DNA of 35,048 nt from positions 1 through 35,048 of the forward strand of contig PAXM01000019.1 of assembly GCA_002714485.1 (NCBI GenBank), read 5' to 3'. The position numbers were made by a program, and so were the translations under genes. The DNA is from Acidimicrobiaceae bacterium (GTDB lineage: Bacteria > Actinomycetota > Acidimicrobiia > Acidimicrobiales > MedAcidi-G1). The notes under the pieces are model-generated. The model was not told where the DNA came from and made no database searches. It saw only the letters and a list, made by a program, of their open reading frames with translations. Positions within the stretch are counted from its first letter, which is position 1. Each line of letters begins with the position of its first letter. Shown in pieces: positions 16,298-35,048 of this stretch.

Positions 16298-16825
16298 TCA
16301 GCCATCTTCCGTAGTTGGTTGTAGGGCTGCAACGTTGGTTGGGTCCGTCTCCGAGGGGGCGAGGTGTTCGAGCTTCGCTGTATATCCGAGGTAGTCCCAT
16401 ACCATTTGCTCCCCCTCCCGTCGGCGCCGGACCTCGATCGGAATGCCCTCCGGCCGCAAGACGTGTTCTCCGTTCTCGTAGGTGGCCACCACGTGGATCT
16501 CAGTGGCCTTGTCGAACTCGGCAACATCGTGCACTCCGCGCTCCCGGGTGCCGTCGCAGCGCATGTCATGGACGATGCCGCCCCCGGTGACGACCACTCG
16601 GTCGCCGCGCTGTTCCACCCGCTGGACGTGGCCCAGTCCCGGGTGGTCAGGTTGGGTCAGGTTGTCGACTAGGACTTCGACCGTGCGCCAGTAGCCATCG
16701 AGGTCCGGAGCGTCGGTGGGGGTGGGCTCAGCGCAGCCCGTCAGGACCGGGGCCGGCCATGTGGTCCATCCACCGGGAGGAGTGTGGGAGACAGGGATGT
16801 CGTCGATGGTGTGTCGTTCATTCAT
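16298..16825 (-). CDS. hypothetical protein (175 aa), translationally coupled to the sulfatase
   Basis: The ORF has GC-rich third positions. Its ATG overlaps the sulfatase stop by 4 nt. I recognise no family motif. Confidence 0.6.
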   Translation of the reverse strand: MNERHTIDDIPVSHTPPGGWTTWPAPVLTGCAEPTPTDAPDLDGYWRTVEVLVDNLTQPDHPGLGHVQRVEQRGDRVVVTGGGIVHDMRCDGTRERGVHDVAEFDKATEIHVVATYENGEHVLRPEGIPIEVRRRREGEQMVWDYLGYTAKLEHLAPSETDPTNVAALQPTTEDG

Positions 16826-19113
16826 TGACGCGACATCTCCGCTCTGGCTGTAGCCGTCGTTTCGCTGGCTACCGAACTGGCGCCCTCGGTCCCGCCCTTG
16901 CGTTGGAGCCGCTGGATCACGACCTCGTGCAGAGTTCCGGTGAATCCGAACGGTGCCGAGTAGCGGTTCGACACTCCCGAGCCGTGGTCCTCGCCGACAC
17001 TGGCGCCCACCGAGGAGATAATCCTCATGTAGGAAGGAATAGGTGCCCGACCACAGGCCTGACCGTCGATAGCTACCTCGACCCAGCCGGAGGTACGACT
17101 ATCGCGTTCAAAGTGGACACCAAGCGAGCTATCGCCGGGGGGTACTTCAATGGTCGATTCGACGATTGTGTGGTTGTCGAAGGAGTTGTAGTCGACGACT
17201 AGCCGCCCATTCTGCAAGAAGACCGAAACGCCTGAGTTCTCGGTTCCGGTTGCCCACAGGACACCCTCGTCACCTGCAGCACTGGTGATTCGTGCGGTGA
17301 GGTCGACGGCTCGGCCTCCGAGCCCTGCGGATGCTCCTGCAGGGATCGGCGACATCGGCGGCCGGTACACGTAGCGACGATCGAGCCTGTGTGGTGAGTG
17401 GTCGCTTGGATGGGCGCCGAACAACTCCAGTGTCCGGTCGTCGAGTGGTAGGACACCGTGGCGTTCGGCTTCCTCCCACCAAAGGTCGACCAACCCCGCG
17501 AGCAATTGGGGCTCTGCCGCAGCCAGATCGATGCACTCCGACGGGTCGCAGGTGAGATCGTAGAGTTCCCAGGGCTCGGAGTCGAAGTCGTCGCCCTGGT
17601 TGTGTTTAGTTACCGCCTTCCACCACACGCCTTCGCATTCGGCTATCAATGCCCGACTGCCGGCGTTCTCGAAGTACTGAAGCTTGTTTGTGGATGGTGC
17701 CCTTTCATCACCTAGGACGGCTTGGAACGAGTGGCCCGTGACTGGCATCTGTTCGATTCCCCGGTACACCTCCGGGGGCGTGACTCCGAGTAGTCCATAA
17801 ATCGTCGGGCTGATGTCGGACACGTTCACGAACTGCGACCGCTTGGTGCCAACCTGCTCTGCGCCGAAGCCGTTGGGCCAATGCATGACCAGAGGCACGT
17901 GAACGCCACCCTCATGGGTGTTCTGCTTGTACCACCGGAACGGAGAGTTACCGCACTGGGCCCAGCCCCACGGGTAGTTCGTGTGGCTGTGTGGACCTCC
18001 AATGTCGTCGATGCGCTCGATGGCTTCGTCTGGCGATTCGAGCATGCCGTTGAAGAACTTCATCTCGTGCATTACTCCGAACGGCCCACCTTCCTGTGAC
18101 GCGCCGTTGTCGGCAAGCACCACGAGGATCGTGTTGTTCAGTTCATCCAGGTGTCGCAGCCCCGCCACCAGTCGGCCGATCTGGTCGTCAGCGTGATCCA
18201 AGAAGGCCGCGAAGGCCTCCTGAAGCCGGCAGGCAAGTCGGCGTTGGTTTTCGGGCAGGTCATCCCAGGCTTCGACACCGGGATTGCGGGGGGCGAGTTC
18301 TGTGCCGGGAGGGATGACCCCAAGCTCGAGTTGGCGCTGGTGCCAACGCTGCCGGACTACGTCCCAGCCCTCGTCATAATGACCCCGGTACTTGTCGAGG
18401 TAGGCCTGAGGGGCCTGGTGTGGGGCGTGGGTGGCACCGAACGGGAGGTAGGCGAAGAACGGCCGGTCCGGGCGCACACCTTTGCTGTCGTTGATCATCT
18501 GAAGCAGCTGGTCGACCAAGTCTTCGCTCAGGTGGTAGCCGTCTTTAGGTGTTGACGGTGGATCAATGTGGGTGTTGTCGCGGACTAGTTCGGGGTGGAA
18601 CTGGTCGGTCTCCCCCTCCAAGAACCCGTAGAACCGGTCGAAGCCGCGCGCCAGCGGCCACTGGTCAAATGGCCCGGCCGCCGAAGTGTCCTGCGTCGGT
18701 GCCAAGTGCCACTTTCCGGCGCAGAAGGTGGCGTACCCCTCGGCATGGAGCACCTCTGCGATAGTGGATGCCGAGTCCGAGATATGGCCTAGTTGGTGCG
18801 GGAACCCTGTACGCCAATTGGAAACGCCTCTCAATCCGACTGCGTGTTGCGACCTGCCGGTCAGCAGCGCTGCACGCGTCGGTGAGCACAGTGGCGTCAC
18901 GTGGAAGTTCGTGAACTGGATGCCACCAACAGCGAGAGCGTCCACGTTGGGGGTGGCGATGTCGGAGCCGTAGCAGCCGAGTTGAGCGAAGCCCGTGTCG
19001 TCAAGGAGGACGATGACCACGTTGGGCGCGGCCTCACCGGGGTGGGGCGGTTCCATGTAGTCCGGCTCGGAGTCCGCCAGCGTCCGGCCGATCCTTCCCT
19101 TGAACTCAGTCAT
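16822..19113 (-). CDS. large formylglycine-dependent arylsulfatase (AtsA-like) with C-terminal extra domain
   Basis: LLDDTGF, CSPTRAALLTG, GKWH and ADNG motifs. There is a ~250-aa C-terminal extension beyond the catalytic core. AGGAG RBS. No signal peptide. Confidence 0.9.
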   Translation of the reverse strand: MTEFKGRIGRTLADSEPDYMEPPHPGEAAPNVVIVLLDDTGFAQLGCYGSDIATPNVDALAVGGIQFTNFHVTPLCSPTRAALLTGRSQHAVGLRGVSNWRTGFPHQLGHISDSASTIAEVLHAEGYATFCAGKWHLAPTQDTSAAGPFDQWPLARGFDRFYGFLEGETDQFHPELVRDNTHIDPPSTPKDGYHLSEDLVDQLLQMINDSKGVRPDRPFFAYLPFGATHAPHQAPQAYLDKYRGHYDEGWDVVRQRWHQRQLELGVIPPGTELAPRNPGVEAWDDLPENQRRLACRLQEAFAAFLDHADDQIGRLVAGLRHLDELNNTILVVLADNGASQEGGPFGVMHEMKFFNGMLESPDEAIERIDDIGGPHSHTNYPWGWAQCGNSPFRWYKQNTHEGGVHVPLVMHWPNGFGAEQVGTKRSQFVNVSDISPTIYGLLGVTPPEVYRGIEQMPVTGHSFQAVLGDERAPSTNKLQYFENAGSRALIAECEGVWWKAVTKHNQGDDFDSEPWELYDLTCDPSECIDLAAAEPQLLAGLVDLWWEEAERHGVLPLDDRTLELFGAHPSDHSPHRLDRRYVYRPPMSPIPAGASAGLGGRAVDLTARITSAAGDEGVLWATGTENSGVSVFLQNGRLVVDYNSFDNHTIVESTIEVPPGDSSLGVHFERDSRTSGWVEVAIDGQACGRAPIPSYMRIISSVGASVGEDHGSGVSNRYSAPFGFTGTLHEVVIQRLQRKGGTEGASSVASETTATARAEMSRQ

Positions 19114-24065: not shown

Positions 24066-25034
24066 TCAGTCAATTCCGCCCAGGTGGCTGTGGGTGTCGG
24101 CTGCCGCCTCGTCGGGCCAGTTGGTGCGCCAGACCTCTGACTGCACATAGCCCATGGGAATCGATCGGGTCTCAAAGCCATCTACTGGCTCGATCATCGG
24201 CTCGGCCACAACCCGGTGGTTGGGCACCGCGAAGAATGGGGCGCTGTACCGCTCGACCCCGTTGGAGATGACCACCCGGTGGGGTGTAGAGACGAGTCGA
24301 CCCCCCGACCAAACCTCCAAGACGTCACCTACGTTCACCAAAAGTGCCCCCTCGGGACAGCTGGCTTCAACCCATCGACCGTTGCGCTTCCGTACCTCGA
24401 GGCCGCCCACTGGATCGGGGTCAAGCACGGTGACCACGGTGATGTCCTTGTGAGGGTGGAACCCCGGCGCCGGGTCGTCGGCTCGCCTGGCCGGGTAGTG
24501 GAGCAGGGTCGTGTTGGTCAGTGGTGCCGCCATGGCTTCGGTTAGAACGGATCGGTCCAACTCCATCTCGTCGGCCAGCACGTCCAGGAGTCGGTCGACA
24601 AGGCCTTCCATGGACGCCCACCAGGACTCCACGATCTGTGGCATTTCCACCGGGCACTCAGGCCACCGGTTCGGTCCGTACAGGTCGCACTCATTCCTGA
24701 CCGGATGTTCCGGCGGGCATTCCCAGTGAAGCTTGTAGCCCTCGAAAGCATCGGCTTTAGCCGCACCTTCCAATGCACCTGAGTCTCGGTTCGGGGTGAA
24801 AAAGTGCAGCGGGATGAAGCCCCGGTAGTTCTCCCGGGTGATGGCCTGCCGGGCCTTGGAGGCCTTGTCCAGCGCGAACAGGTCGACTAGTAGTTGCCTC
24901 ATTGCCGACAGGTCGGCTTCTGGCACCCCGTGCTCACGTAACGCCACAAACCCGACGGTCGAGAGTGCGGCGATCACGCCGGGTCCGTCGACCAAGTCGA
25001 CCACCGGGACGTCAGGGGCCGAAGCTCCCTCCAT
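24066..25034 (-). CDS. Fe(II)/2-oxoglutarate oxygenase, isopenicillin-N-synthase-like family
   Basis: HPHKDITVVTVL (HxD), STPHRV distal His and RYSAPFF (RxS). The ATG at 25034 overlaps the stop of the M24 gene (TAATG). The track's longer ORF is an extension. Confidence 0.85.
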   Translation of the reverse strand: MEGASAPDVPVVDLVDGPGVIAALSTVGFVALREHGVPEADLSAMRQLLVDLFALDKASKARQAITRENYRGFIPLHFFTPNRDSGALEGAAKADAFEGYKLHWECPPEHPVRNECDLYGPNRWPECPVEMPQIVESWWASMEGLVDRLLDVLADEMELDRSVLTEAMAAPLTNTTLLHYPARRADDPAPGFHPHKDITVVTVLDPDPVGGLEVRKRNGRWVEASCPEGALLVNVGDVLEVWSGGRLVSTPHRVVISNGVERYSAPFFAVPNHRVVAEPMIEPVDGFETRSIPMGYVQSEVWRTNWPDEAAADTHSHLGGID

Positions 25035-26215
25035 TAGATGATCGGCAACTCGGGCGGGGCCCGGCGGGACAGCATTTCGGGCCCGTCGGCCCGTAGGACC
25101 AGGTTCTCTTCGTGGACCATCATTCGACCGGGTGCCCACGTGAGACCTGGCTCGAGAGTTAGGACCATCCCCTCCTCCAGGACAGTGGCGTCGTCTGCGG
25201 TATTGGAAGGCCACTCGGTGACCTGCATACCCAGTCCGTGGCCGAGTCGTCCTACCGAGTTCCCGAGCGACCCCCCGGCGTCGAGCACTGCGGCCATGGC
25301 TCGCCACAGATCGCTGGTGGTGGCTCCCGGCTTAGCTGCGGCGAAACCGGCCTCGGTCGCCTCCCACACCGTCCGGTAGGCCCGTTTGGCATCGGCATCG
25401 GCCCGTCCGAAGGCCACATAGCGGTCGAAGTCGCTGGAGTAGCCGTCAAAGACCGATCCGGTGTCGAACATGAGCAGGTCGCCCGGCTCGATCACCCGGT
25501 CCGAGGGCTGCTTGATGATGTCGTCGAAACCCGGGCCGGTGGCCCCCACGAGGTACGGCACGTCATCGGCACCGCGCTCGAGGAGGTCGATGCGGAACGC
25601 CCGAAAGGCCTCTCTCTCGGTCATGCCTACTGACAACAGGTCGCCGATTTCTTCGAAGGCCCCCGAGACCACGTCGCAGATGTGAGCCACTTTTGCGATC
25701 TCACGGTCGGACTTGACCATCCGCAGGCCGCGGACCACATCGGTTGCGTCCACGAAGCTCGCCGGGGCGATCCGTTCCCGTAGGACATCGAGGTCGGTGA
25801 GGGGCATGCGTACGTGGGTTTCGTGGCCCATAGGCAGGCCGATCCTCACCGGTGTCCTGCCACCACCCCCGGTCAGTTCGGTCAGCGTGTCGACCAGGAG
25901 GATGAGACCGTCGTCGGTCGGCCGTGGTGCGGGCCAGGTCCGAATGTCGTTTACCCACGTGGTACCCATGGCTGAGGCGCCGATGCCCGGGATCACGGCC
26001 ACCGGTCGCCCCGCGGCGGGCAGGATCACGAACCATGGACGGGTAGGGCTCTGCCAGAACGGGGTGTGGAACCCCGTCAGGTACCGGACTTCTGGTTCGG
26101 TGCAGACCAGTAGGGCGTCGAGGTCGCGCTCAGCCATCATTGCCTGTGCCCGGGCGGCCCGGGCCACGAACTCCGCATCGGGGAATCCCCGTTCGGGAAG
26201 GGCTTTCTCCGTCAT
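25034..26215 (-). CDS. M24 family metallohydrolase (creatinase / Xaa-Pro peptidase / ectoine-hydrolase-like)
   Basis: Creatinase-type N-terminal domain. Metal ligands lie in FDTGSVFDGYSSDFDR, GHGLG, LEPG and VHEEN. The ATG at 26215 overlaps the upstream stop (ATGA). Confidence 0.85.
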   Translation of the reverse strand: MTEKALPERGFPDAEFVARAARAQAMMAERDLDALLVCTEPEVRYLTGFHTPFWQSPTRPWFVILPAAGRPVAVIPGIGASAMGTTWVNDIRTWPAPRPTDDGLILLVDTLTELTGGGGRTPVRIGLPMGHETHVRMPLTDLDVLRERIAPASFVDATDVVRGLRMVKSDREIAKVAHICDVVSGAFEEIGDLLSVGMTEREAFRAFRIDLLERGADDVPYLVGATGPGFDDIIKQPSDRVIEPGDLLMFDTGSVFDGYSSDFDRYVAFGRADADAKRAYRTVWEATEAGFAAAKPGATTSDLWRAMAAVLDAGGSLGNSVGRLGHGLGMQVTEWPSNTADDATVLEEGMVLTLEPGLTWAPGRMMVHEENLVLRADGPEMLSRRAPPELPII

Positions 26216-27000
26216 CTTTCGAGCCCTAGGGAAAACAGTCTCCCCAGACCCGTTAACTGGTCGTTGATCCCCGCTAGGCGAAGGAGATGCCACCCAAAGG
26301 CCAGGTTGCTGGATACCACCGCTACCCCGAGTTCGGATTCCAAGTCGGCGGCTACTCCGCAGGCCCGAAGGCTGGTGCACGACACGAACACTGCGTCCAA
26401 TGCTTCTGCATCCGGATCGCCGGCGGAGTTACACACCATTTCTCGCACGGCGTCGGCCACCGCAGCTTCGGTTATACGAGCCACGGTGGCGTCGCTCTCC
26501 TCGAGGAAGGAGCCAGCGGCGGCCACGTCAAGCCCGCGGTCCTCTAGCAGACTCACAATGCCAGTTGTCACCTGTGCGTTGTAGGGCGTTATGACGGCAA
26601 TCCGACTCGCCCCCAGTGCCTCCATGGCGGCCAGAACGGCACTGATGGGGTTGGTGTTGGCTACTTCGGGATGGGCCCGATCCAGTGCGGCCGATACCCG
26701 CTCCTCCCCGATCAGGGTGGCCGCCGAGGTACAGCCGTAGCCGATGACATCAAAACCCATGATTTCCGGAAGCAGGCCGGCCGCCTCGGGAATCCGGGTC
26801 TCCATGGCCAGGAGGGACTCGGCGGTCACCCGGTCCCCCATGGGGATCCTGGTGGCGAAAGCGGCCACCCCCTCGGGCCATAGCGTGGCCAACTCCGCCT
26901 CTACGGTCTGATCGTTCTCCAGCACAACCAGGCCGATCCGGGCTCGACTGCCGAAACCGGCATCGGTTTCGAATGGGAGCTCTTTCAGTTCGACGGTCAT
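26212..27000 (-). CDS. Asp/Glu/hydantoin racemase superfamily protein (maleate isomerase / arylmalonate decarboxylase / EutA-like)
   Basis: 262 aa with two pseudo-symmetric Cys motifs, GYGCTSA and VSCTSLRA. The ATG overlaps the upstream stop (ATGA). Confidence 0.8.
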   Translation of the reverse strand: MTVELKELPFETDAGFGSRARIGLVVLENDQTVEAELATLWPEGVAAFATRIPMGDRVTAESLLAMETRIPEAAGLLPEIMGFDVIGYGCTSAATLIGEERVSAALDRAHPEVANTNPISAVLAAMEALGASRIAVITPYNAQVTTGIVSLLEDRGLDVAAAGSFLEESDATVARITEAAVADAVREMVCNSAGDPDAEALDAVFVSCTSLRACGVAADLESELGVAVVSSNLAFGWHLLRLAGINDQLTGLGRLFSLGLER

Positions 27001-27878
27001 TCTGGGGTCACCTGGGCCTGCTGGTCGAAGAACGATGCGGTTGAAGGCATCTCCCCGAGAGACATCTCGTAGGGCGCGGCACGAATCCGGCCTGTTGGTG
27101 CACCGCGCACCACCTCCCCTTCGTTGACGCTGGGTATGTGGTTGGGGTGCAGGATCCGACTGTCTTCGGATCGGTAACTAAATATGGCCAACGTCCGAGG
27201 CGCCTCGGTCAGATTGGGCGCCGAGCCATGGACGAGGCGGGTGTGCATCAGGCACGCCGAACCCGCCGTTCCATAGCAGGCAACCGGCTTACCGAGGTGG
27301 GCAAGGTCCTCGTCAATGACTGTCCCGGTAAATACCCCGTTCTGCCAGTGCTCGAATACTGGTCCTCGGTGGGTGCCAGGGATGACTTCGAGGGGCCCGT
27401 TTTCTGGGGTCACGTCGTCCACGAATAGCAGGACGGCCAACATGTCGTCGTTGCTGTGGGCCTCGTAGGCGAAGTCCTGGTGGAACTTGACCACCGTATT
27501 GCTACCCGGTTGCTTGCAATTGGTCTTTACGTTGTTGACCGCGAGGTTGGGGCCAACCAGCTGGGCCGCCGCGTCCACCAACGGACTGTTTCGCATGATC
27601 CGTAGGTGGACGTCGCACACCTCCTGTGGAGACGCCACGCGCCGTAGCGCCGGCTGTTCCGCGCTGTGGCCGGGTTGCACGTCGAACCGTGCCCGCCCGT
27701 CCATCGTCGTGCCGAACGGGCCAGCATGGTTCCGGCTCTCCTCCACCCAACAGGCGATCGAGGCTTGGAGGTCGACCAAGTCCATGGCTGACACGGCGTC
27801 GTCCATCATCACGTAACCCTCGGACCAAAAGGCTGCGACCTGCTCGTCGGTAAGAGGCAGCCAGGCCGAAGTGCTCAT
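26997..27878 (-). CDS. phytanoyl-CoA dioxygenase (PhyH) family Fe(II)/2OG oxygenase
   Basis: FHQDFAY (HxD), GPLEVIPGTH and LMHTRLVHGSAPN. I trimmed the start to the ATG at 27878, because the track ORF extends through the upstream gene. Confidence 0.85.
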   Translation of the reverse strand: MSTSAWLPLTDEQVAAFWSEGYVMMDDAVSAMDLVDLQASIACWVEESRNHAGPFGTTMDGRARFDVQPGHSAEQPALRRVASPQEVCDVHLRIMRNSPLVDAAAQLVGPNLAVNNVKTNCKQPGSNTVVKFHQDFAYEAHSNDDMLAVLLFVDDVTPENGPLEVIPGTHRGPVFEHWQNGVFTGTVIDEDLAHLGKPVACYGTAGSACLMHTRLVHGSAPNLTEAPRTLAIFSYRSEDSRILHPNHIPSVNEGEVVRGAPTGRIRAAPYEMSLGEMPSTASFFDQQAQVTPE

Positions 27879-27891
27879 AACGGGGATCCTG

Positions 27892-28890
27892 TCATTCAAC
27901 GTCGCGTTCGTAGTGTTCCGTGGGCGGCGGGTCTGTGCGGAGATCCCGAATAGCCTGTTGTACGTCGATGATTGCCTCTTCCAGTCGATCGGCCGCCCAC
28001 TCGTTGTCGATGCCGAAAGGTAGGTCGTCAACGATTTTCTGCAGTCTGCCGACCCCCCGCCAGGCGGCATGCCGGGCCCACTCGGTGGCCAGCACCGCGG
28101 GATCATCCACTCCGACCAGATCGAGTGAGCGGGACTGATCGTCACCATTGCGGTCCAGACACACGTAGCCATTGACCATTGTGATGCGCTCGGCTGTCGA
28201 GTCCAAAGGCCCACCACGATGAACAACCATGTTGCCGTGCAGCGCGATAGCCCATCCGGGGCCTGGAAAGTCGGGAACCAGGACCTGATCGGTCGGAGGA
28301 CGCTTTCCGGCCGCGGCAAGTGCCGCGGCGTCGTCCTTCGTGCCCAGAAAGATCTCGAAGCGACCACCCGGGAGGGCCGTCGGGTCGCTGACCATCATCA
28401 CGTAGTCCAGAGCCAGGGTGTCGTGATGCCATTTGTCGACAGCATCTCCCACGCTGCTGGGTTCATAGTTGAGGTGCCCGAGGTGAACCGGCATGGTGTG
28501 GGGTGCCACGGCCGTGCCGTACACCTCCACCATCATGTCGGTGACCTCTGGTGAGAGGCATAAGTCCCGAAGCCACCGAGACCGGTAGCAGCCGCCACGG
28601 ACCGTGTTCTCGACGCGATCTCGGGCGTTGGTCTGGAACACTCGTAGTCGGCGGGCGGTGTCCACTAGGACCGCTGCCCCTTCATCGGACAAGATGCGGA
28701 GCGGGGTCGAGAAAGCCACCGGTGTGGCCGTCACGGCGATCTCCTCGCGCTGGTAGCCGAGCTCGGTCAACATGGTGACCCCGGTGGGTGGTCGGAGATC
28801 CAAGTGAAGCGTCGGATCGAAGGCTGGCTCGTCGTCTAGCCAGTCGTACCCGTCGGGTCGGATCTCGGGAAATGGCACCGCTACTGACAT
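27892..28890 (-). CDS. divergent Fe(II)/2OG-oxygenase-like protein (family not recognised)
   Basis: WHHDT (HxD), then VVHRGG 66 residues later, then ERIT (RxS/T-like) 11 residues after that His. This spacing fits a double-stranded beta-helix oxygenase. GAGGAG RBS. Confidence 0.5.
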   Translation of the reverse strand: MSVAVPFPEIRPDGYDWLDDEPAFDPTLHLDLRPPTGVTMLTELGYQREEIAVTATPVAFSTPLRILSDEGAAVLVDTARRLRVFQTNARDRVENTVRGGCYRSRWLRDLCLSPEVTDMMVEVYGTAVAPHTMPVHLGHLNYEPSSVGDAVDKWHHDTLALDYVMMVSDPTALPGGRFEIFLGTKDDAAALAAAGKRPPTDQVLVPDFPGPGWAIALHGNMVVHRGGPLDSTAERITMVNGYVCLDRNGDDQSRSLDLVGVDDPAVLATEWARHAAWRGVGRLQKIVDDLPFGIDNEWAADRLEEAIIDVQQAIRDLRTDPPPTEHYERDVE

Positions 28891-28936
28891 CTTTTGGACT
28901 CCTCAATGCTTTCGACGGTCACCGGCCATTCACCTC

Positions 28937-28954
28937 TCCAAGCCGCAACTTGGA
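28937..28954. repeat. inverted repeat TCCAAG-ccgcaa-CTTGGA in an intercistronic gap
   Basis: Read directly. Lies 15 nt downstream (minus strand) of the flavoenzyme stop. Confidence 0.5.
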
Positions 28955-28968
28955 ATCATGGGCCACGC

Positions 28969-31026
28969 TTAGAGGTGCTGCAAGAGCCGCCGGGCGTCAA
29001 GTAGGGCTGAGGCCACGTCACGACTGGCCACACAGTCGCCGACTCGATACAGCAGGTAGCCACCGTCGGTCGCGGTGAACGCCGGTTGGGCCCGACCTCC
29101 GATGAGCGCCTCCAGGTCCACGACACCGTTGTTGACGGAACCCTCTCGTAACGCCACGTAGAGTTCTGCGTCCGGAGCCACGCCGTGCTCGACAATCACG
29201 GAATCCACCATCCGGTTCATCTGCACCCGGGTGTACTCGTTGCGCATCACTGTCTGAAGAGACCCACCGTCAGTGAGCTCGACTGCGACCAGACGGTGAT
29301 CTGGCGTGATTGCCACGCCGCCCTCGTAGAGCATCCGTAGGTACGCAGGCCCCAATGGTGTAGCTAGGTCTAGGCCGACATGCCGATCAGGTGTCACCAC
29401 TTCGATATCCGACACACCGAGGACCTTGGCCTTTTCCACCAAGAACTCAACGACAGCTAGACCCCGTTCGGCACCATGGTCGTCGTAAACCAGCACCCGG
29501 CCCCCGGGTCGGGCCGAGCCACCCAACACGTCCCATGCTGTGTACACCAGGTCTGCACCCGCCTCCAGATAAGAGACCTCAGGCGATCCACCCGTGGCCA
29601 CAATTACAACGTCGGGCACTTCGGCCAAAACGTCACTTGCATCGACCGGTGTGGACAGCCGAACGTCGACGCCGATCAGCGCCACCTCGTTGACCAGCCA
29701 GTCCAAGAGACCGGCCACCTCGCGCTGACGCTCACCCGCCCGTGCCATAAGTACCAGCTGTCCTCCAAGTCGGTCTTGCGCCTCGAACAGAACCACCGTG
29801 TGGCCCCGCTCGGCAGCCGTTCGTGCTGCCTCTAGGCCACCAGGACCACCACCTACTACGACGACCCGGCGAGCCTGGCCATCAGATCGCACCACCACCT
29901 GCGGCACCGTCCCCTCACGGCCGGTAGCGGGATTCTGGATGCACACCGAATCCAATCCGAGATGTAGTCGATTAATGCACAGCGACGCCCCCACGCAGGC
30001 GCGTATTCGCTGCGGCTCACCCCGCTCCAGCTTGGCCACCAGATGGGGGTCAGCGAAGTGCGCTCGAGTCATTCCCACCAGGTCGACGGCACCGGACTCC
30101 ACGGCGTGTCTGGCCGTGGCCGGGTCGATGATCCGGGTGGCGTGCAGGAGCGGCAGGTCGGTTGCCGAGCGCACAGCAGCAGCGACTGGCAAGTACGGCG
30201 CCAAGGGTGTGCCAGCCGGCGGAATGGCCCGCGACAGGCCTTGGTCGGTAGCAAGTGCCGGTCCAGCCACGTTCAGGAAGTCCAACAGACTTGATCCGGC
30301 CAGGTGCACCGCGATGGCGCAGCAGTCCTCCTCGTCAAGGCCCCCAGCCTGATCCTCGGTGCCCAGCATCCGTATGCCCACTAGGAGCCGCCCGTCGACA
30401 GCCTCCCGGACGGCCTCCAGGACCTCGATCGTTAATCGCAGCCGGTTGTCCAGCGAACCGCCGTATCCGTCGGTCCGGCGGTTTACCAGCGGCGACCAGA
30501 ACTGGTCCAGGAGGTGGCTGGTGGCCAGCAACTCGATCCCATCCAGCCCACTGTCAGCGACCCGTCGGGCAGCGGCAGCGAAGTCAGCCACTACCCGAGC
30601 CAGGTCCGATGGTTCAGCCTCTTTGGGCCAGAACCGGTGCATGGGTTCCCGGATGGGCGATGGGGCGATGGTGGGCAGCCAGTCGCCATCATTGGATACG
30701 TTTCGGCGCCCCATGTGCGTCAGTTGGCACATGATCGCGGTGCCGTGTACGTGGACCCGCTCAGCCATCGCTGCCAGTGGGTCGACGACGGCGTCGGTGG
30801 CGAAATTTAACTGGCCCCAGAGTGAGGCCGAGTCGACCGAGACGTTTGACGATCCACCAATCATGGTCAGTCCGATACCGCCCCGGGCCTTCTCCTCGTG
30901 GTATCGGACATACCGGTCGCTGGGGGTTCCATCGACGTTGTACCCCGGTGAATGGCTGCTGGAGAAGATCCGGTTTCGCAGGCGCAGCCCTGCCAAGTCG
31001 AATGGTTGGAGCAGCGGGTCGTTCAC
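28969..31026 (-). CDS. two-domain flavoenzyme: OYE-like FMN TIM barrel fused to FAD/NAD(P)-binding domain
   Basis: 685 aa. The family includes 2,4-dienoyl-CoA reductase, trimethylamine dehydrogenase and N-methylproline demethylase. N-terminal LRLRNRI...SSH OYE start. Central CVGASLCINR...CIQNPATGRE segment. VVVVGGGPGGLEAA and VVIVATGG dinucleotide motifs. GTG start. Confidence 0.9.
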   Translation of the reverse strand: MNDPLLQPFDLAGLRLRNRIFSSSHSPGYNVDGTPSDRYVRYHEEKARGGIGLTMIGGSSNVSVDSASLWGQLNFATDAVVDPLAAMAERVHVHGTAIMCQLTHMGRRNVSNDGDWLPTIAPSPIREPMHRFWPKEAEPSDLARVVADFAAAARRVADSGLDGIELLATSHLLDQFWSPLVNRRTDGYGGSLDNRLRLTIEVLEAVREAVDGRLLVGIRMLGTEDQAGGLDEEDCCAIAVHLAGSSLLDFLNVAGPALATDQGLSRAIPPAGTPLAPYLPVAAAVRSATDLPLLHATRIIDPATARHAVESGAVDLVGMTRAHFADPHLVAKLERGEPQRIRACVGASLCINRLHLGLDSVCIQNPATGREGTVPQVVVRSDGQARRVVVVGGGPGGLEAARTAAERGHTVVLFEAQDRLGGQLVLMARAGERQREVAGLLDWLVNEVALIGVDVRLSTPVDASDVLAEVPDVVIVATGGSPEVSYLEAGADLVYTAWDVLGGSARPGGRVLVYDDHGAERGLAVVEFLVEKAKVLGVSDIEVVTPDRHVGLDLATPLGPAYLRMLYEGGVAITPDHRLVAVELTDGGSLQTVMRNEYTRVQMNRMVDSVIVEHGVAPDAELYVALREGSVNNGVVDLEALIGGRAQPAFTATDGGYLLYRVGDCVASRDVASALLDARRLLQHL

Positions 31027-31105: not shown

Positions 31106-31756
31106 TCAGGAGTAGGTCCCATCAGGGAACAAAAGGTCGAGTACGGCGTCCACGCAATCTTGGAGAGGTCGACCAGTGTCGATCCGCAAGTCAGGCGAGA
31201 TGGGCGTTTCGTATGGTGCCGAGATGCCACTGAAGTCGGGAATCTCTCCCGCCCGAGCCCGGGAGTACAAGCCCTTGACGTCCCGCTCCTCGCAGACCTC
31301 TAGCGGCGTGTCCACGAAGACCTCGATGAAAGTTCCGTCCGGGTGCATGGCCCGCACGGCCTCCCGGTCGGCGCGGTAGGGCGAAATGAATGCGCTGAAC
31401 ACCACCAGACCAGCATCCTGGAACAGCCGGCACACCTCACCGATACGGCGCACGTTCTCAGTTCGGTCATCGGGCGAGAATCCAAGGTCGCGGTTAAGGC
31501 CCATGCGGACGTTGTCTCCATCCAAGACGTATGCAGCCACACCGCGGGCCACCAAGGCGTCCTCCACCGCGAATGCCAGCGTGGACTTCCCGGAGCCGGA
31601 AAGTCCGGTAAGCCAGACCGTCCTGCCATCGTGGCCGGTCAGCGCAGTCCGTCGGGCCCGGTTCACGTGCCCCTCCGCTCGGGTGAGGTCCTGGGACACC
31701 GGTCCGTTATTCCTCGAAGAGTCGAATTCAGCCACGGAGCACACCCCGATCCTCAA
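31106..31756 (-). CDS. cysC: adenylylsulfate (APS) kinase, stand-alone and canonical
   Basis: [23 protein letters not shown] and [11 protein letters not shown]. The ATG at 31756 overlaps the cysNC end by 29 nt. An in-frame GTG at 31699 is an alternative start. Confidence 0.9.
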
Positions 31757-33647
31757 GTAACGTGAAGATGGCGTCTACGCATTCATCGATGTCCTGCACC
31801 GAGGTGTCGAGTCGAAGATCCATGTCGGTGGGCTGTTCATAGGCCGATGACACACCCGGGTAGTCCTCAATTTCTCCCCTATCGGCCGCTTCGTACTGGC
31901 CACTTGAGTCGCGCTGCCGGCAGACCCCAATCGGAGTGTCAACAAACACTTCCACGAAGCGGTGGTCGCCAATGAGTTCGCGGGCACGAGTTCGAACATT
32001 GGCCTCGGGAGCCACCAGTGCGGCAATGGCTATCAGGCCTTGCCGATTGGCTAGCAGCGCCACCTCGGCCACACGACGCAGGTTCTCCGAACGGTCCCGG
32101 GCGCTGAAACCAAGGTCTCGGCTTATGCCGAGACGTACGTTCTCCCCGTCGAGCCGAATGGTGGCGTGGCCGCGATCGAACAAACGGCGCTCCAAGCCCG
32201 CTGCAATGGTTGACTTGCCTGCCGCTGTCAAGCCGGTCAGCAGGACCGTGCAGGGTCGTTGGCCAAACCGTGCCACTCGCTCCTCCGGCGTGATCTCTGA
32301 TCGGTGGCGGACTAGGCCGACAGCAGGGCTCCGATCCCAGACCGAGGAGGCGCACAGAATCATTCCGGCGGCTACCGTCGCATTGTCCATCCGATCCACG
32401 AGGACGAACGAGCCAGTCCGCCGGTTGGTGGAATAGGGGTCAAATAGCAACTCGCGTTCAGCGGTGATCGTGCAACGGGCGATGTCGTTGAGGGCCAGCT
32501 CTGTGGCTGCCACGTGCTCTAGCGAGTTGACGTCCACCCGATAGTCGATGGCGGCCACCGATACGCCAACGAGGCCGTTAGCCGACTGCAGGAGGTATTG
32601 GCGACCGGGCCGCATTTCCTCGTGGGCCATCCAGACCAGCATGGCGTCGACCTCGTGGGACCGAGTCGGCTGGTCGTCGTTTCCCACCAGGAGGTCACCC
32701 CGGCTGACGTCGATCTCATCGGCCAGGGTCAGCGTCACCGCATCGCCGGGCCCGACCTCGTCAAGGTCACCATCGAAGGACACGATGCGGTCAACAGTGG
32801 ATGCCACCCCCGACGGGAGTGACACCACGGGATCCCCGGGCCGCAGCACTCCGGAGACCACCGTGCCAGCGAACCCTCGGAAGTCGCCGTCTGGACGAAT
32901 CACCAACTGCACTGGCAGGCGGAACCGGTCCAGATCGACGCCGGCGGCCACGTCGACAGTCTCGAGGTACTCCATCAAGGGCGGTCCATCGAACCAGGTG
33001 AGGTTGTCCCCACGTTCCACCACGTTGTCGCCCAGTAGGGCCGACATGGGCAGGAAGTACGGGTCGACCAGCTGCAGACCGGTGGCGAAGGCCTGGTAGT
33101 CGGCCCGGATCTCGTCGAACCGATCCTCGGACCAGGCCACCAGGTCCATTTTGTTTACGGCCACTACCACCTTATGGATGCCAAGCAGGCTGGCGATGTG
33201 GCTGTGTCGGCGGGTCTGGTCAAGTACGCCGTGCCGGGCGTCCACGAGGATCACCGCCAGCTCACATGTCGAAGCCCCGGTGGCCATGTTGCGGGTGTAC
33301 TGCTCGTGACCAGGGGTATCAGCCACGATGAACTTGCGACGGGCTGTCGAGAAGTAGCGGTAAGCCACGTCAATGGTGATGCCCTGTTCCCGTTCAGCCT
33401 TTAGGCCGTCCATGAGCAATGACAGATCGAGATGGTCGCCTGCGGACCCCACAACCGTTGAGTCGACCTCTAGACCGGCAAGCTGATCCTCGTAGATCAT
33501 GCGTGAGTCGTGGAGTAGGCGCCCGATGAGGGTCGACTTGCCGTCGTCGACACTGCCGCAGGTCAGGAGCCGTAGTAGGTCCTTACGCTCGTGTTCGGCT
33601 AGGTAGGCCTCAATGTCGGTGGCGATGAGCTCGGAGGCGTGAGACAT
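31728..33647 (-). CDS. cysNC: sulfate adenylyltransferase subunit 1 (GTPase) fused to an APS-kinase-like C-terminal domain
   Basis: [17 protein letters not shown] and NKMD GTPase motifs. The C-terminal ~190 aa are homologous to CysC but with altered motifs (see findings). Confidence 0.9.
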
Positions 33648-34564
33648 CAGAAGTACCCCTCGCGTTTCTTGTCCTCCATGGAGCCAGCCTGATCGTGGTC
33701 GATGACTCGCCCCTCGCGCTCGGACCGGGTGGCCAACAGCATCTCCTGGATGATCTCAGGCAGCGTGGTGGCCGTCGACTCCACTGCACCCGAAAGCGGG
33801 TAGCAGCCGAGGGTGCGAAAACGCACCGACCGCATCTGAGGCTCTTCCCCGTCGGAGAACCGGAAGCGATCGTCATCGACCATGATGAGGGTTCCATCGC
33901 GTTCCACAACAGGCCGTACCTTGGACCGGTATAGGGGCACGATGTCGATGCCTTCCAGGTGGATGTACTGCCAGACGTCCAACTCGGTCCAGTTGCTAAT
34001 CGGAAACACTCGGATGCTCTCACCCCTGTGGATCCGGCCGTTGTAGAGGTTCCAGAGCTCAGGTCGCTGGTTCTTCGGATCCCATCGGTGGTTCCGGTCC
34101 CGAAAACTGAATTCCCGCTCCTTGGCCCGGGACCGTTCCTCGTCGCGCCGAGCACCCCCGAACGCCGCATCGAAACCACCGGCGTCCAACGCCTGGCGCA
34201 GGGCCACAGTCTTCATGATGTCGGTGTAGTTCCTCGACCCGTGGTCGAACGGGTTGATCCCTTCGGCTACACCAGCGGTGTTGGTGTGGACGATCAGGTC
34301 CAGATCCAGTTTTGCGGCTGTCTGGTCACGGAACTCGATCATTTCCTGGAACTTCCAGGTGGTGTCGACGTGGAGCAGCGGGAACGGAATGGGTCCCGGG
34401 TGGAACGCCTTACGGGACAGATGCAGGAGCACTGACGAGTCCTTACCGATCGAGTAGAGCATGACCGGCCTCTCGAACTGGGCAACGACCTCACGCATCA
34501 CGTGGATGGCCTCGGCCTCCAGTTGCTGGAGGTGGGTCCGCTGCTGTGCTGTGTTCGACGCCAC
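33647..34564 (-). CDS. cysD: sulfate adenylyltransferase subunit 2
   Basis: [15 protein letters not shown]-loop. Full-length CysD pattern ending in [11 protein letters not shown] start 3 nt after the TetR stop. The stop overlaps the cysNC ATG. Confidence 0.95.
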
Positions 34565-34567
34565 GGT

Positions 34568-35048
34568 TCAGCCATCACCTAGGGCGATGGCCTCGCAGCG
34601 TTGCAGGCCGCGCTCCAGCGCCTCCCGGTCCCCGAAACGGGCCCAGTTGAGCCAAAGCCCATTCTGGGTGAGTGACACGTCGACAGCTCGTTCTCGTGCT
34701 CCGGTCGCGGAGAGTTCGGGACGGGCCTGCAAAATCATTTCAGTCATCCGGTCCACGTACTCGCAGTAAAACTTCAGATCGGTCTTGCCGATCTCCGGGT
34801 CTAGCCGGCCCGCCGCCCAAATAACTAGCCGGAGCCGACGGTTCTCCGACGACAAGAATTCTTCGGCCATCGTCCCCCGGATAAACGTCCTTACCCGCTC
34901 GTCAGCACCTGTCACCCCATCTATGGAAACCATGGACTCGACCAGAAGGCGATCACAGGCCACCTGTAACGCCGCGCCAATTAGGGCCTGCTTGCCCGAG
35001 AAGTGATAGTTGAGCAGCCCCAGGGACACATCCGCTTCGGTTGCCACG
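34568..35048 (-). CDS. TetR/AcrR family transcriptional regulator (N-terminus beyond window edge)
   Basis: ATEADVSLGLLNYHFSGKQAL is the recognition-helix end of a TetR HTH. It is followed by a helical ligand-binding domain. The ORF is open to the window edge. Confidence 0.75.
   Translation of the reverse strand, partial: VATEADVSLGLLNYHFSGKQALIGAALQVACDRLLVESMVSIDGVTGADERVRTFIRGTMAEEFLSSENRRLRLVIWAAGRLDPEIGKTDLKFYCEYVDRMTEMILQARPELSATGARERAVDVSLTQNGLWLNWARFGDREALERGLQRCEAIALGDG

What the first reader, a model, noticed from the sequence alone, without database searches (positions are those of the whole stretch)
31106..32315. The APS-kinase domain fused to CysN has degenerate catalytic motifs and is followed by an intact stand-alone CysC
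The two CysC-homologous sequences are easy to align by eye. At the conserved positions they read (stand-alone CysC versus fused domain):
- [10 protein letters not shown] versus [10 protein letters not shown]
- LDGDNVR versus LDGENVR
- AFISPYR versus ALVAPEA, so the conserved Ser is lost
- [11 protein letters not shown] versus [11 protein letters not shown]

The Walker A GxxxxGKS/T skeleton survives. The DGD Asp, the ISP Ser (reported as the phospho-acceptor Ser in E. coli CysC) and the lid-region KGLY..ARAG are all changed.

This suggests the fused domain is a pseudo-kinase, regulatory or structural, and that kinase activity is supplied by the downstream gene. There is a precedent in fungal ATP sulfurylase, whose C-terminal APS-kinase-like domain is an allosteric PAPS sensor. 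From memory, Mycobacterium tuberculosis CysNC keeps the canonical motifs.
Basis: partly seen in the sequence, partly recalled or inferred. Interest (0 to 1): 0.6.

Follow-up and report, generated by a model that had tools for sequence, protein, structure and literature searches.

The report
Dead APS-kinase domain fused to CysN
In this marine actinobacterium's sulfate-activation operon, the GTPase subunit CysN carries a well-conserved copy of the next enzyme (APS kinase) that has lost its catalytic residues, and a normal stand-alone kinase gene follows it; the same "dead" domain defines a large bacterial lineage (including Pseudomonas) that databases label as a working two-in-one enzyme.

Summary
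On the minus strand lie cysD (33647-34564), a 639-aa cysN-APS-kinase fusion (31728-33647) and a stand-alone cysC (31106-31744/31756).

**What is changed.** By the M. tuberculosis CysC structure paper, the fused domain has lost:
- the proposed catalytic base (Asp480 to Glu502);
- the lid lysine that stabilises the transition state (Lys562 to Ser582).

A conserved lid arginine is also replaced (Asp589). The P-loop, the APS-contacting residues and the whole fold are kept (AlphaFold pLDDT 94, TM about 0.9 to solved APS kinases). The stand-alone CysC is fully canonical.

**Evidence it is not decaying.** Its dN/dS (0.07-0.17) equals that of cysC and of the GTPase part.

**Evidence it is not a local oddity.**
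- 43 of 45 such variant domains form one clade (support 100/97).
- They ride on a matching deep CysN clade spanning Acidimicrobiia, Planctomycetota, Myxococcota and Gammaproteobacteria, including Pseudomonas.
- All 10 loci of the Acidimicrobiia lineage examined keep cysD-cysN*-cysC. None of 40 canonical fusions has a second kinase nearby.

**Most likely reading.** A kinase-dead, ligand-binding regulatory or structural module, with PAPS made by CysC. This is unproven biochemically. I found no paper describing it. The closest precedent is the fungal ATP sulfurylase allosteric domain.

The parts
33647..34564 (-). cysD, the ATP sulfurylase small (catalytic) subunit, 305 aa. Its stop overlaps the cysN start by 1 nt.
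   Evidence: NCBIfam NF009214 CysD 516 bits (cut-off 413) and Pfam PAPS_reduct 188 bits. ORF.
32316..33647 (-). CysN GTPase part (residues 1-444) of the 639-aa fusion protein.
   Evidence: TIGR02034 CysN 610 bits over residues 25-430. Pfam GTP_EFTU, GTP_EFTU_D2 and GTP-eEF1A_C.
31728..32315 (-). Variant ('type B') APS-kinase-like domain, CysN residues 445-639 plus the stop codon. Predicted to be kinase-dead but able to bind ligand.
   Evidence: PF01583 175 bits. AlphaFold pLDDT 94.1. TM 0.91-0.92 to human PAPSS1 and Arabidopsis APS kinases. dN/dS 0.07-0.17. Falls in the type-B clade, support 100/97.
32208..32234 (-). P-loop GLTAAGKST (residues 472-480). The Walker A Lys and Ser/Thr are retained.
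   Evidence: K478, S479 and T480 correspond to Mtb K456, S457 and S458.
32133..32153 (-). LDGENVR (residues 499-505). Glu502 (32142-32144) replaces the proposed catalytic base Asp480. Asp500 (the Mg-water ligand) and Arg505 (APS contact) are retained.
   Evidence: This position is D in 40/40 canonical fusions and E in 8/8 of this lineage's sampled loci; all 120 close relatives read LDGE.
32001..32024 (-). AALVAPEA (residues 542-549) in place of SFISPxR. Ile523 becomes Val545 and Ser524 becomes Ala546.
   Evidence: 'AFVAP/ALVAP' is the signature of the whole type-B clade.
31851..31922 (-). Lid, [24 protein letters not shown] (residues 576-599). Lys562 becomes Ser582 (31902-31904) and Arg569 becomes Asp589 (31881-31883). 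Cys576, Arg579, Tyr585 and Tyr596 are retained.
   Evidence: Position 582 varies even within this lineage (S3, N3, E1, H1), which is not the behaviour of a catalytic residue.
31106..31744 (-). Stand-alone canonical cysC (APS kinase), 212 aa from GTG 31744. The longest ORF starts at TTG 31756; another GTG lies at 31735. It overlaps the cysN stop by 17 nt.
   Evidence: PF01583 223 bits, TIGR00455 245 bits. E 4.5e-62 to the human PAPSS1 kinase domain. All catalytic residues are canonical. The gene call in the 96%-identical relatives L081 and L082 gives 212 aa. SD GAGGA seen.
34568..35047 (-). C-terminal part of a TetR-family regulator gene, ending 3 nt upstream of cysD. It is cut by the window end.
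   Evidence: ORF. The orthologous 193-aa gene in L081-L083 hits PF00440 TetR_N.

Best explanation
The window carries a co-directional, overlapping cysD-cysN-cysC operon. The C-terminal domain of CysN is a pseudo-kinase.

**What the domain keeps and has lost.** It keeps the APS-kinase fold, the Walker-A P-loop and the residues that contact APS. It has lost the catalytic base (Asp to Glu502), the lid lysine that stabilises the transferring phosphate (Ser582), and a conserved lid arginine (Asp589).

**How the pathway most likely runs.**
- CysD and CysN make APS, driven by GTP hydrolysis.
- The canonical stand-alone CysC, whose start overlaps the cysN stop and which is probably translationally coupled, phosphorylates APS to PAPS.

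**What the dead domain most likely does.** It is kept as a non-catalytic module of the sulfurylase. It probably acts as an APS/PAPS- or nucleotide-binding regulatory element, and possibly as a dimerisation element, that tunes or organises CysDN.

**Shown versus inferred.** Shown here: the substitutions, purifying selection, fold retention, clade membership and gene order. Inferred: loss of kinase activity, ligand binding and the regulatory or structural role.
For: **Residue roles.** The M. tuberculosis CysC structure paper gives these roles: Asp480 is the proposed base, essential in the mouse enzyme; Lys562 stabilises the gamma-phosphate in the transition state; Arg559 contacts the ATP adenine; Arg483, Arg497 and the Ile523 main-chain N bind APS.

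**Mapping onto the window.**
- Changed: D480 to E, K562 to S, R569 to D.
- Retained: K456, S457, D478, R483, F492, R497, N500, C556, R559.
- In 40 canonical fusions, D480 and K562 are invariant (40/40).

**Relaxed constraint at the catalytic positions.**
- The D480-equivalent position is variable across the variant clade (Q, E, A, K).
- The K562-equivalent position is also variable (S, N, E, H, D, Q). It varies even inside this lineage, while its neighbours stay invariant.

**Purifying selection (pairs with unsaturated dS).**

| Region | dN/dS |
|---|---|
| Fused domain | 0.084, 0.069, 0.090, 0.166 |
| cysC | 0.080, 0.099, 0.102, 0.138 |
| GTPase part | 0.118, 0.128, 0.111, 0.167 |

**Fold.** pLDDT 94.1, and TM 0.91-0.92 to solved APS kinases.

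**Phylogeny.**
- The domain tree puts 43 of 45 variant domains in one clade, support 100/97.
- A tree built from the GTPase part alone gives a matching split, support 100/99.

**Gene order.**
- A canonical cysC lies directly downstream in all 10 loci of this lineage.
- None of 40 canonical fusions has a second APS kinase within 6 kb.
- An 832-aa triple fusion, CysN-dead domain-canonical kinase, exists (P0125).
Against: - No biochemical data exist for any member.
- Glu could in principle act as a base, and it is strictly conserved in this lineage: all 120 close relatives read LDGE. That suggests it does something.
- The P-loop is intact, so ATP or ADP binding and some residual or altered phosphotransfer cannot be excluded.
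- Most other variant-clade loci (35 of the 46 fetched) show no cysC within 6 kb. The pairing with CysC is therefore specific to this lineage and cannot explain why the domain is kept in general.
I could not determine whether the organism has an APS or a PAPS reductase, sulfotransferases, or other cysC copies.
Confidence: 0.7

Rival explanations
1. The fused domain is still a working APS kinase. Glu502 serves as the base and another residue takes the place of the lid lysine. The operon would then encode two APS kinases that are redundant or differently regulated.
For: The P-loop, the Mg-water Asp500, the APS-contacting residues and the whole lid length are retained. Glu502 is strictly conserved: 8/8 in this lineage's sampled loci, and all 120 close relatives read LDGE. 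The protein scores above the NCBIfam 'bifunctional' cut-off, 920 against 715 bits.
Against: - Asp480 and Lys562 are invariant in all 40 canonical fusions and in the stand-alone CysCs sampled.
- The Lys562 position is not replaced by any conserved residue; it varies S/N/E/H within the lineage.
- The lid Arg569 is charge-reversed to Asp or Glu.
- Sister lineages have Gln, Ala or Lys at the base position.
- A canonical cysC is retained in 10 of 10 loci of this lineage, but in 0 of 40 loci with a canonical fusion.
Confidence: 0.13
2. The domain has acquired a new activity. For example, it might be a kinase or phosphotransferase with a different acceptor or donor, or an enzyme that acts on PAPS or APS in another way.
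For: The intact P-loop and strong purifying selection suggest that nucleotide binding matters. The type-B clade has its own conserved signature: GIS, RSENLRR, AFVAP, A[DE]xG, FPGV.
Against: - The retained pocket residues are exactly those that bind APS in canonical enzymes.
- No new conserved polar or catalytic residue appears at the two lost positions.
- The Pseudomonas subclade has additionally lost APS-stacking residues and part of the lid, yet the domain is kept. That fits a structural role better than a shared new chemistry.
Confidence: 0.1
3. The domain is a decaying evolutionary relic of a former bifunctional CysNC. It became dispensable once a separate cysC was acquired.
For: Catalytic residues are lost and a canonical cysC lies next door.
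Against: - dN/dS is as low as for the functional genes.
- There are no frameshifts, stops or truncations in more than 120 relatives of 639 aa.
- The model has high confidence throughout.
- The variant clade is deep, spans several phyla, and has its own invariant residues.
Confidence: 0.03

Closest known systems
Bifunctional CysN/CysC of the sulfate-activating complex (M. tuberculosis Rv1286; Rhizobium NodQ; NCBIfam NF004035)
   Same: It has the same architecture: a CysN GTPase plus a C-terminal PF01583 domain, encoded after cysD. The full-length HMM match is above the curated cut-off. The fused domain aligns over almost the whole solved Mtb kinase domain (4bzp, E 9e-35), and the predicted structure superposes on it (TM 0.79-0.89, 42% identity).
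   Different: In Mtb, LDGD 477-480 and Lys562 are present and the domain is an active kinase. Here Asp480 is Glu, Lys562 is Ser and Arg569 is Asp. The protein belongs to a separate deep clade in both the GTPase tree and the kinase-domain tree. A separate canonical cysC follows.
C-terminal APS-kinase-like allosteric domain of Penicillium chrysogenum ATP sulfurylase (PDB 1I2D, 1M8P)
   Same: It is an APS-kinase fold fused to a sulfate-activating enzyme. It is devoid of kinase activity and is used to bind PAPS as an allosteric effector (PMC3734648; bioRxiv 10.64898/2026.04.02.716029). The model aligns to 1I2D with TM 0.85 and 38% identity.
   Different: The fungal domain is fused to the homo-oligomeric Sat-type sulfurylase, not to the CysN GTPase of the CysDN enzyme, so the fusion is independent. 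Ligand binding and allostery are untested here.
Pseudomonas 'CysNC', annotated as a bifunctional enzyme
   Same: It belongs to the same variant clade in both trees. The catalytic Asp is replaced (LDGQNLR) and the lid Lys is replaced by Gln.
   Different: The Pseudomonas subclade is further decayed: LGF becomes LPQ, four residues are deleted from the lid, and the FTGI Phe is lost. No cysC lies within 6 kb in the 14 loci seen. The window's domain keeps a complete APS pocket and lid.
APS kinases carrying a dead ATP-sulfurylase-like domain (Thiobacillus denitrificans 3CR8, Entamoeba histolytica APSK)
   Same: They follow the same principle: a partner enzyme of the pathway is retained as an inactive fused domain with a structural or regulatory role.
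   Different: The polarity is reversed. There the sulfurylase-like domain is dead and the kinase is active. They are also Sat-type, not CysDN-type.

Membership tests
Catalytically competent APS kinase (EC 2.7.1.25; Pfam PF01583, TIGR00455), tested on the fused domain | Sequence and fold of the APS_kinase family | tested here: met
   PF01583 175 bits, TIGR00455 186 bits. Model pLDDT 94, TM 0.91-0.92 to 2OFX and 3UIE.
Catalytically competent APS kinase (EC 2.7.1.25; Pfam PF01583, TIGR00455), tested on the fused domain | Walker A P-loop GxxxxGK[ST] | tested here: met
   GLTAAGKST, residues 472-480.
Catalytically competent APS kinase (EC 2.7.1.25; Pfam PF01583, TIGR00455), tested on the fused domain | Second Asp of LDGD (Mtb Asp480, the proposed catalytic base) | tested here: not met
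   Glu502. This position is D in 40/40 canonical fusions.
Catalytically competent APS kinase (EC 2.7.1.25; Pfam PF01583, TIGR00455), tested on the fused domain | Lid Lys of KGLY (Mtb Lys562, transition-state stabiliser) | tested here: not met
   Ser582. It varies S/N/E/H within the lineage and is K in 40/40 canonical fusions.
Catalytically competent APS kinase (EC 2.7.1.25; Pfam PF01583, TIGR00455), tested on the fused domain | APS-contacting residues (Arg483, Phe492, Arg497, Asn500, Phe576) | tested here: met
   R505, F514, R519, N522 and Y596 are retained.
Catalytically competent APS kinase (EC 2.7.1.25; Pfam PF01583, TIGR00455), tested on the fused domain | Measured phosphorylation of APS to PAPS | not testable with these tools
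   Needs an enzyme assay.
Bifunctional CysN/CysC (NodQ type; NCBIfam NF004035) | Full-length HMM match above the curated cut-off | tested here: met
   920.5 bits against a cut-off of 715. Public sources name relatives 'bifunctional enzyme CysN/CysC'.
Bifunctional CysN/CysC (NodQ type; NCBIfam NF004035) | Both halves catalytically equipped (GTPase and kinase residues) | tested here: not met
   The kinase half lacks Asp480 and Lys562. The protein falls in clade II of the GTPase tree, separate from the canonical clade I, support 100/99.
Canonical APS kinase CysC, tested on the stand-alone gene 31106-31744 | P-loop, LDGDN.R, FISP, and a lid reading C..RD.KGLY..AR.G | tested here: met
   [39 protein letters not shown]. 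TIGR00455 245 bits. It groups with canonical kinases in the tree.
Fungal-type allosteric APS-kinase-like domain (P. chrysogenum ATP sulfurylase) | APS-kinase fold without catalytic equipment, fused to a sulfate-activating enzyme | tested here: met
   The description of the fungal domain is in PMC3734648.
Fungal-type allosteric APS-kinase-like domain (P. chrysogenum ATP sulfurylase) | Fusion partner is the Sat-type (PF01747) ATP sulfurylase | tested here: not met
   The partner is the CysN GTPase: TIGR02034 and GTP_EFTU.
Fungal-type allosteric APS-kinase-like domain (P. chrysogenum ATP sulfurylase) | Binds PAPS and allosterically inhibits the sulfurylase | not testable with these tools
   Needs binding and kinetic experiments.
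GTP-dependent ATP sulfurylase CysDN | A CysD (PAPS_reduct fold) gene adjacent to a CysN (EF-Tu-like GTPase) gene | tested here: met
   NF009214 CysD 516 bits and TIGR02034 CysN 610 bits. The genes overlap by 1 nt.

The most novel reading that the evidence does not exclude
The variant CysN-fused domain is a general product or intermediate sensor and hand-off module of the GTP-driven ATP sulfurylase. It binds APS or PAPS in its preserved pocket. Through the old kinase dimer interface, it either gates the CysN GTPase and CysD (feedback like the fungal enzyme, but evolved independently on a G-protein-coupled sulfurylase), or it pairs with the stand-alone CysC to channel APS. If so, a whole bacterial clade across several phyla, including Pseudomonas, regulates sulfate activation by a mechanism that has not been described, and its members are wrongly annotated as PAPS producers.
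Probability: 0.3. Interest if true: 0.7.

Novelty: new variant of a known kind. Interest (0 to 1): 0.5.

Why it matters
**Annotation.** Pipelines call these proteins "bifunctional CysN/CysC": the NCBIfam score is above cut-off and public sources use that name. If the domain is dead, PAPS synthesis, and hence sulfation capacity and the APS-versus-PAPS route of assimilation, is mis-predicted. The error would affect a large clade that includes marine Acidimicrobiia, Planctomycetota, Myxococcota and Pseudomonas.

**Mechanism.** This would be a second, independent case of an APS-kinase fold being recycled as a non-catalytic module of a sulfate-activating enzyme. Here the module sits on the G-protein-coupled CysDN type.

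**Testability.** The Acidimicrobiia operon has the dead domain and the live kinase side by side, and probably translationally coupled. That makes it a clean natural system for testing what the dead domain does.

Tried and rejected
- **Relic hypothesis.** Rejected by dN/dS and by uniform length conservation.
- **Local peculiarity.** Rejected by the survey of 80 loci and by two trees.
- **Linking the variant domain to APS-type or PAPS-type CysH.** I scanned the 6-kb flanks for the ECG[LIVM]H and Fe-S signatures. Only 2 of 85 loci had a cysH nearby, so this was uninformative.
- **Window context.** Pfam annotation of the rest of the window found no sulfotransferase, cysH or cysQ. The fate of PAPS in this organism stays open.
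- **Papers not held.** Mougous 2006 (P. syringae CysDN structure), Bick 2000, Ravilious & Jez 2012 and Sekulic 2007 were not available. I could not check whether those papers comment on the Pseudomonas domain, or read the primary mutagenesis data for the Asp and the Lys.
- **dN/dS caveat.** dS is saturated (above 1) for most pairs. Only four pairs with dS of about 0.2-1.0 are relied on.
- **Sampling caveat.** The 47:40 ratio of variant to canonical fusions is not a prevalence estimate. The 80 loci were the best matches to a variant-type query.
Full report
**What is there**

The minus strand of the window's right end carries a co-directional gene row.
- A TetR-family gene, cut by the window end (34568-35047).
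- cysD (33647-34564, 305 aa).
- A 639-aa cysN fusion (31728-33647).
- A stand-alone cysC (longest ORF 31106-31756).
- An Old-Yellow-Enzyme-type flavoprotein (28969-31026).

cysD and cysN overlap by 1 nt. The cysC ORF overlaps the cysN stop codon. A GAGGA lies 5 nt before the GTG at 31744. The gene called in 96%-identical relatives also has 212 aa. I therefore take 31744 as the likely start, giving a 17-nt overlap and probable translational coupling.

Family scans identify the genes.
- CysD: NF009214, 516 bits.
- CysN: TIGR02034, 610 bits over residues 25-430.
- APS_kinase PF01583 appears twice: residues 464-614 of the fusion (175 bits) and the stand-alone protein (223 bits).

Public names of near-identical proteins place the organism in uncultured, partly marine (TARA) Acidimicrobiales.

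**Checking the observation**

To judge which differences matter, I took residue roles from the M. tuberculosis CysC crystal-structure paper (PMC4373884).
- Lys456 and Ser458 of the P-loop bind the phosphates.
- Asp478 holds a Mg-bound water.
- Asp480 (the second Asp of the invariant LDGD) lies next to the APS 3'-OH. It is the proposed catalytic base and was reported essential in the mouse enzyme.
- Arg483, Arg497 and the main-chain N of Ile523 bind the phosphosulfate.
- Arg559 of the lid contacts the ATP adenine.

The spacing between anchors lets Mtb numbers be transferred without ambiguity. The fused domain compares as follows.

| Status | Residues (Mtb number to window residue) |
|---|---|
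| Kept | K456, S457, T458, D478, R483, F492, R497, N500, C556, R559, Y565; an aromatic at F576 (Tyr) |
| Changed | D480 to E502; K562 to S582; lid R569 to D589; I523/S524 to V545/A546; N487 to S509 |

The stand-alone CysC is canonical at every one of these positions.

From memory, and unverified here, replacing it in the Penicillium enzyme left activity. The Asp and the Lys are the meaningful losses.

**More than chance, and not a local accident**

All 120 closest database relatives (72-100% identical in the domain) read LDGE, and 111 of them carry the same [11 protein letters not shown]-loop.

A scan of one genome per species returned 80 CysN-kinase fusions from many phyla. In the alignment of these plus the window's lineage, two sharply different types appear.

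*Type A, 40 sequences.* GLSG[SA]GKST, LDGDN[VI]R, GLN, DR[VI]ENIRR, SFISPF, RD.KGLYKKAR.G, FTGI. D480 and K562 are present in 40 of 40.

*Type B, 47 sequences including the window.* GLT..GK, LDG[QEAKR], GIS, RSENLRR, AFVAP, RD...G.Y..A[DE].G, FPGV.
- None has the Asp480-plus-Lys562 pair; Asp480 itself is absent from every type-B subgroup tallied.
- The replacement differs between lineages: Q, E, A or K at the base position; S, N, E, H, D or Q at the lysine position.
- The lysine position varies even inside the window's own lineage (S3, N3, E1, H1), while flanking residues are invariant.

This is the pattern of relaxed constraint at exactly the catalytic positions, within an otherwise constrained domain.

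**Phylogeny**

A tree of the GTPase part alone, which is independent of the kinase domain, splits the proteins with 100/99 support.
- Clade I: 35 of 35 are type A.
- Clade II: 44 type B plus 4 type A.

A tree of the kinase domains puts 43 of 45 type-B domains in a single clade with 100/97 support. The window's domain is inside it. The stand-alone CysCs of the window's lineage sit among the canonical kinases.

So the variant domain is old, essentially of single origin, and has co-evolved with its own CysN lineage. That lineage covers Acidimicrobiia, Planctomycetota, Myxococcota and many Gammaproteobacteria, including 13 Pseudomonas and 1 Halopseudomonas genome.

The Pseudomonas subclade is more decayed: LGF has become LPQ, the lid has a four-residue deletion, and the FTGI Phe is lost.

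In the library of 50%-identity representatives, roughly the best 25-35 hits to the fused domain carry variant LDG[EQ...] motifs. Canonical LDGD sequences take over below that.

**Is the domain still doing something?**

Yes. For pairs with unsaturated dS, the values are:

| Pair | Fused-domain core | cysC core | GTPase part |
|---|---|---|---|
| W-L082 | 0.084 | 0.080 | 0.118 |
| W-L083 | 0.069 | 0.099 | 0.128 |
| L082-L083 | 0.090 | 0.102 | 0.111 |
| L083-L085 | 0.166 | 0.138 | 0.167 |

Among the 120 listed relatives, nearly all full-length proteins are exactly 639 aa; the shorter entries come from short contigs.

An AlphaFold model built on 25 type-B sequences is confident throughout, with mean pLDDT 94.1, pTM 0.90, and no segment below 50. 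It superposes on solved APS kinases with TM 0.91-0.92 (2OFX, 3UIE, 4FXP) and on the P. chrysogenum ATP-sulfurylase allosteric domain with TM 0.85.

The type-B family has 26 invariant residues of its own. These include the P-loop Gly and Lys, and residues of the LDG.N.R loop, the RSENLRR helix and the FPGV turn.

**Gene-order evidence**

All 10 loci of the window's lineage have a canonical cysC directly after the fusion. These are the window, L081-L086 and L001-L003, and they range down to 69% full-length identity. The arrangement holds even where the flanks are otherwise different (L086).

None of the 40 type-A loci has a second APS-kinase gene within 6 kb. Among them, four actinobacterial loci carry type-A fusions without an adjacent cysC (three Acidimicrobiia-lineage, L056, L061 and L066, plus a Frankiales MAG, L075). 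Related organisms therefore show the complementary pattern.

An 832-aa representative (P0125) is a triple fusion. It has CysN, then a strongly degenerate kinase-like domain (GLPGCGKEE, LDAATMR), then a canonical kinase ([29 protein letters not shown]). The dead and live domains thus coexist even in one chain.

Against a CysC-dependent role, only 2 of the other 35 type-B loci (L016, L043) have a canonical cysC within 6 kb.

**Interpretation**

The best-supported reading, at about 0.7, has three parts.
- CysD and CysN make APS.
- The stand-alone CysC makes PAPS.
- The fused domain is a kinase-dead but ligand-competent module.

Because its APS pocket and P-loop are preserved in this lineage, I favour a sensor or regulatory role, or an APS-retention role. 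The fungal ATP sulfurylase is the model: its APS-kinase-like domain lacks activity and binds PAPS allosterically (PMC3734648). A dimerisation or scaffold function is an overlapping possibility. The Pseudomonas subclade, which has lost pocket residues too, suggests that a structural contribution is at least part of why the domain is kept.

The rivals are as follows.
- Residual true kinase activity with Glu as base, about 0.13. The strict conservation of Glu502 in this lineage is the best argument for it.
- A new activity, about 0.1.
- A decaying relic, about 0.03, rejected by selection and length conservation.

**Comparison with what is known**

The protein passes the HMM test for "bifunctional CysN/CysC" (920 against 715 bits), and public sources name it so. 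It fails the residue-level test for the kinase half, and it belongs to a different deep clade from the characterised M. tuberculosis enzyme.

It works like the fungal allosteric domain, but it is not a member of that family because the fusion partner is the CysN GTPase, not a Sat-type sulfurylase. The reverse arrangement, a dead sulfurylase-like domain on a live kinase, is known from T. denitrificans and E. histolytica.

I found no paper describing a dead kinase domain on CysN in nine full-text searches. Several key subscription papers were not held. I therefore cannot exclude that the Pseudomonas case has been remarked on.

Earlier AI notes of this scan report the same theme in other genomes. 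I treated them as leads only. The conclusions here rest on my own alignments, trees and selection tests.

**Limits**

The organism's cysH type, its sulfotransferases and any other cysC copies are unknown.
- The window itself has two sulfatases (4423-5859 and 16822-19113) but no sulfotransferase, cysH or cysQ.
- Loss of kinase activity and ligand binding are inferences that need the assays listed under next steps.

Noticed in passing
window 4423-5859 (+) and 16822-19113 (-): Two Sulfatase-family (PF00884) genes, 478 aa and 763 aa, lie in the same 35-kb window as the sulfate-activation operon. Sulfate-ester hydrolysis and sulfate activation are therefore encoded close together.
   Followed up: no
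window 27892-28890 (-): A 332-aa ORF with no Pfam hit lies between the OYE-type flavoprotein and the PhyH dioxygenase. Orthologues of 332 aa and 328 aa, also without a Pfam hit, sit at the same place in L082 and L085. It is a conserved gene of unknown family.
   Followed up: partly
window 24066-31026 (-), also L081-L085: Downstream of cysC is a conserved row of genes: OYE/2,4-dienoyl-CoA-reductase-like flavoprotein, PhyH dioxygenase, arylmalonate-decarboxylase/Asp-Glu-racemase-like protein, creatinase/prolidase M24, and 2OG-Fe(II) oxygenase. The row travels with the cysDNC genes in several relatives but is absent in L086. Whether it is functionally linked to PAPS is unknown.
   Followed up: partly
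P0125 (832-aa representative protein): A triple fusion: CysN, then a strongly degenerate APS-kinase-like domain without a P-loop Ser/Thr or LDGD, then a canonical APS kinase.
   Followed up: partly
L037, L039, L051, L053: Four fusions sit inside the variant CysN clade by their GTPase part, yet carry canonical kinase domains that group with canonical kinases. This suggests either domain replacement or independent degeneration events within clade II.
   Followed up: no
L019, L021, L023-L025, L027-L033, L035, L042 (Pseudomonas and Halopseudomonas): The CysN-fused domain of Pseudomonas is even more decayed than the window's. It reads LDGQNLR, LGF has become LPQ, and the lid has a four-residue deletion. 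These proteins are still generally annotated as bifunctional CysN/CysC.
   Followed up: partly
window 26997-28367 (-): The longest ORF here is 456 aa, but only the C-terminal ~283-293 aa is the PhyH gene. The PhyH match starts at residue 10 of the 283-aa translation of 26997-27848, and the relatives' genes are 288-293 aa. The long N-terminal extension overlaps the neighbouring 332-aa gene and is probably not translated.
   Followed up: no
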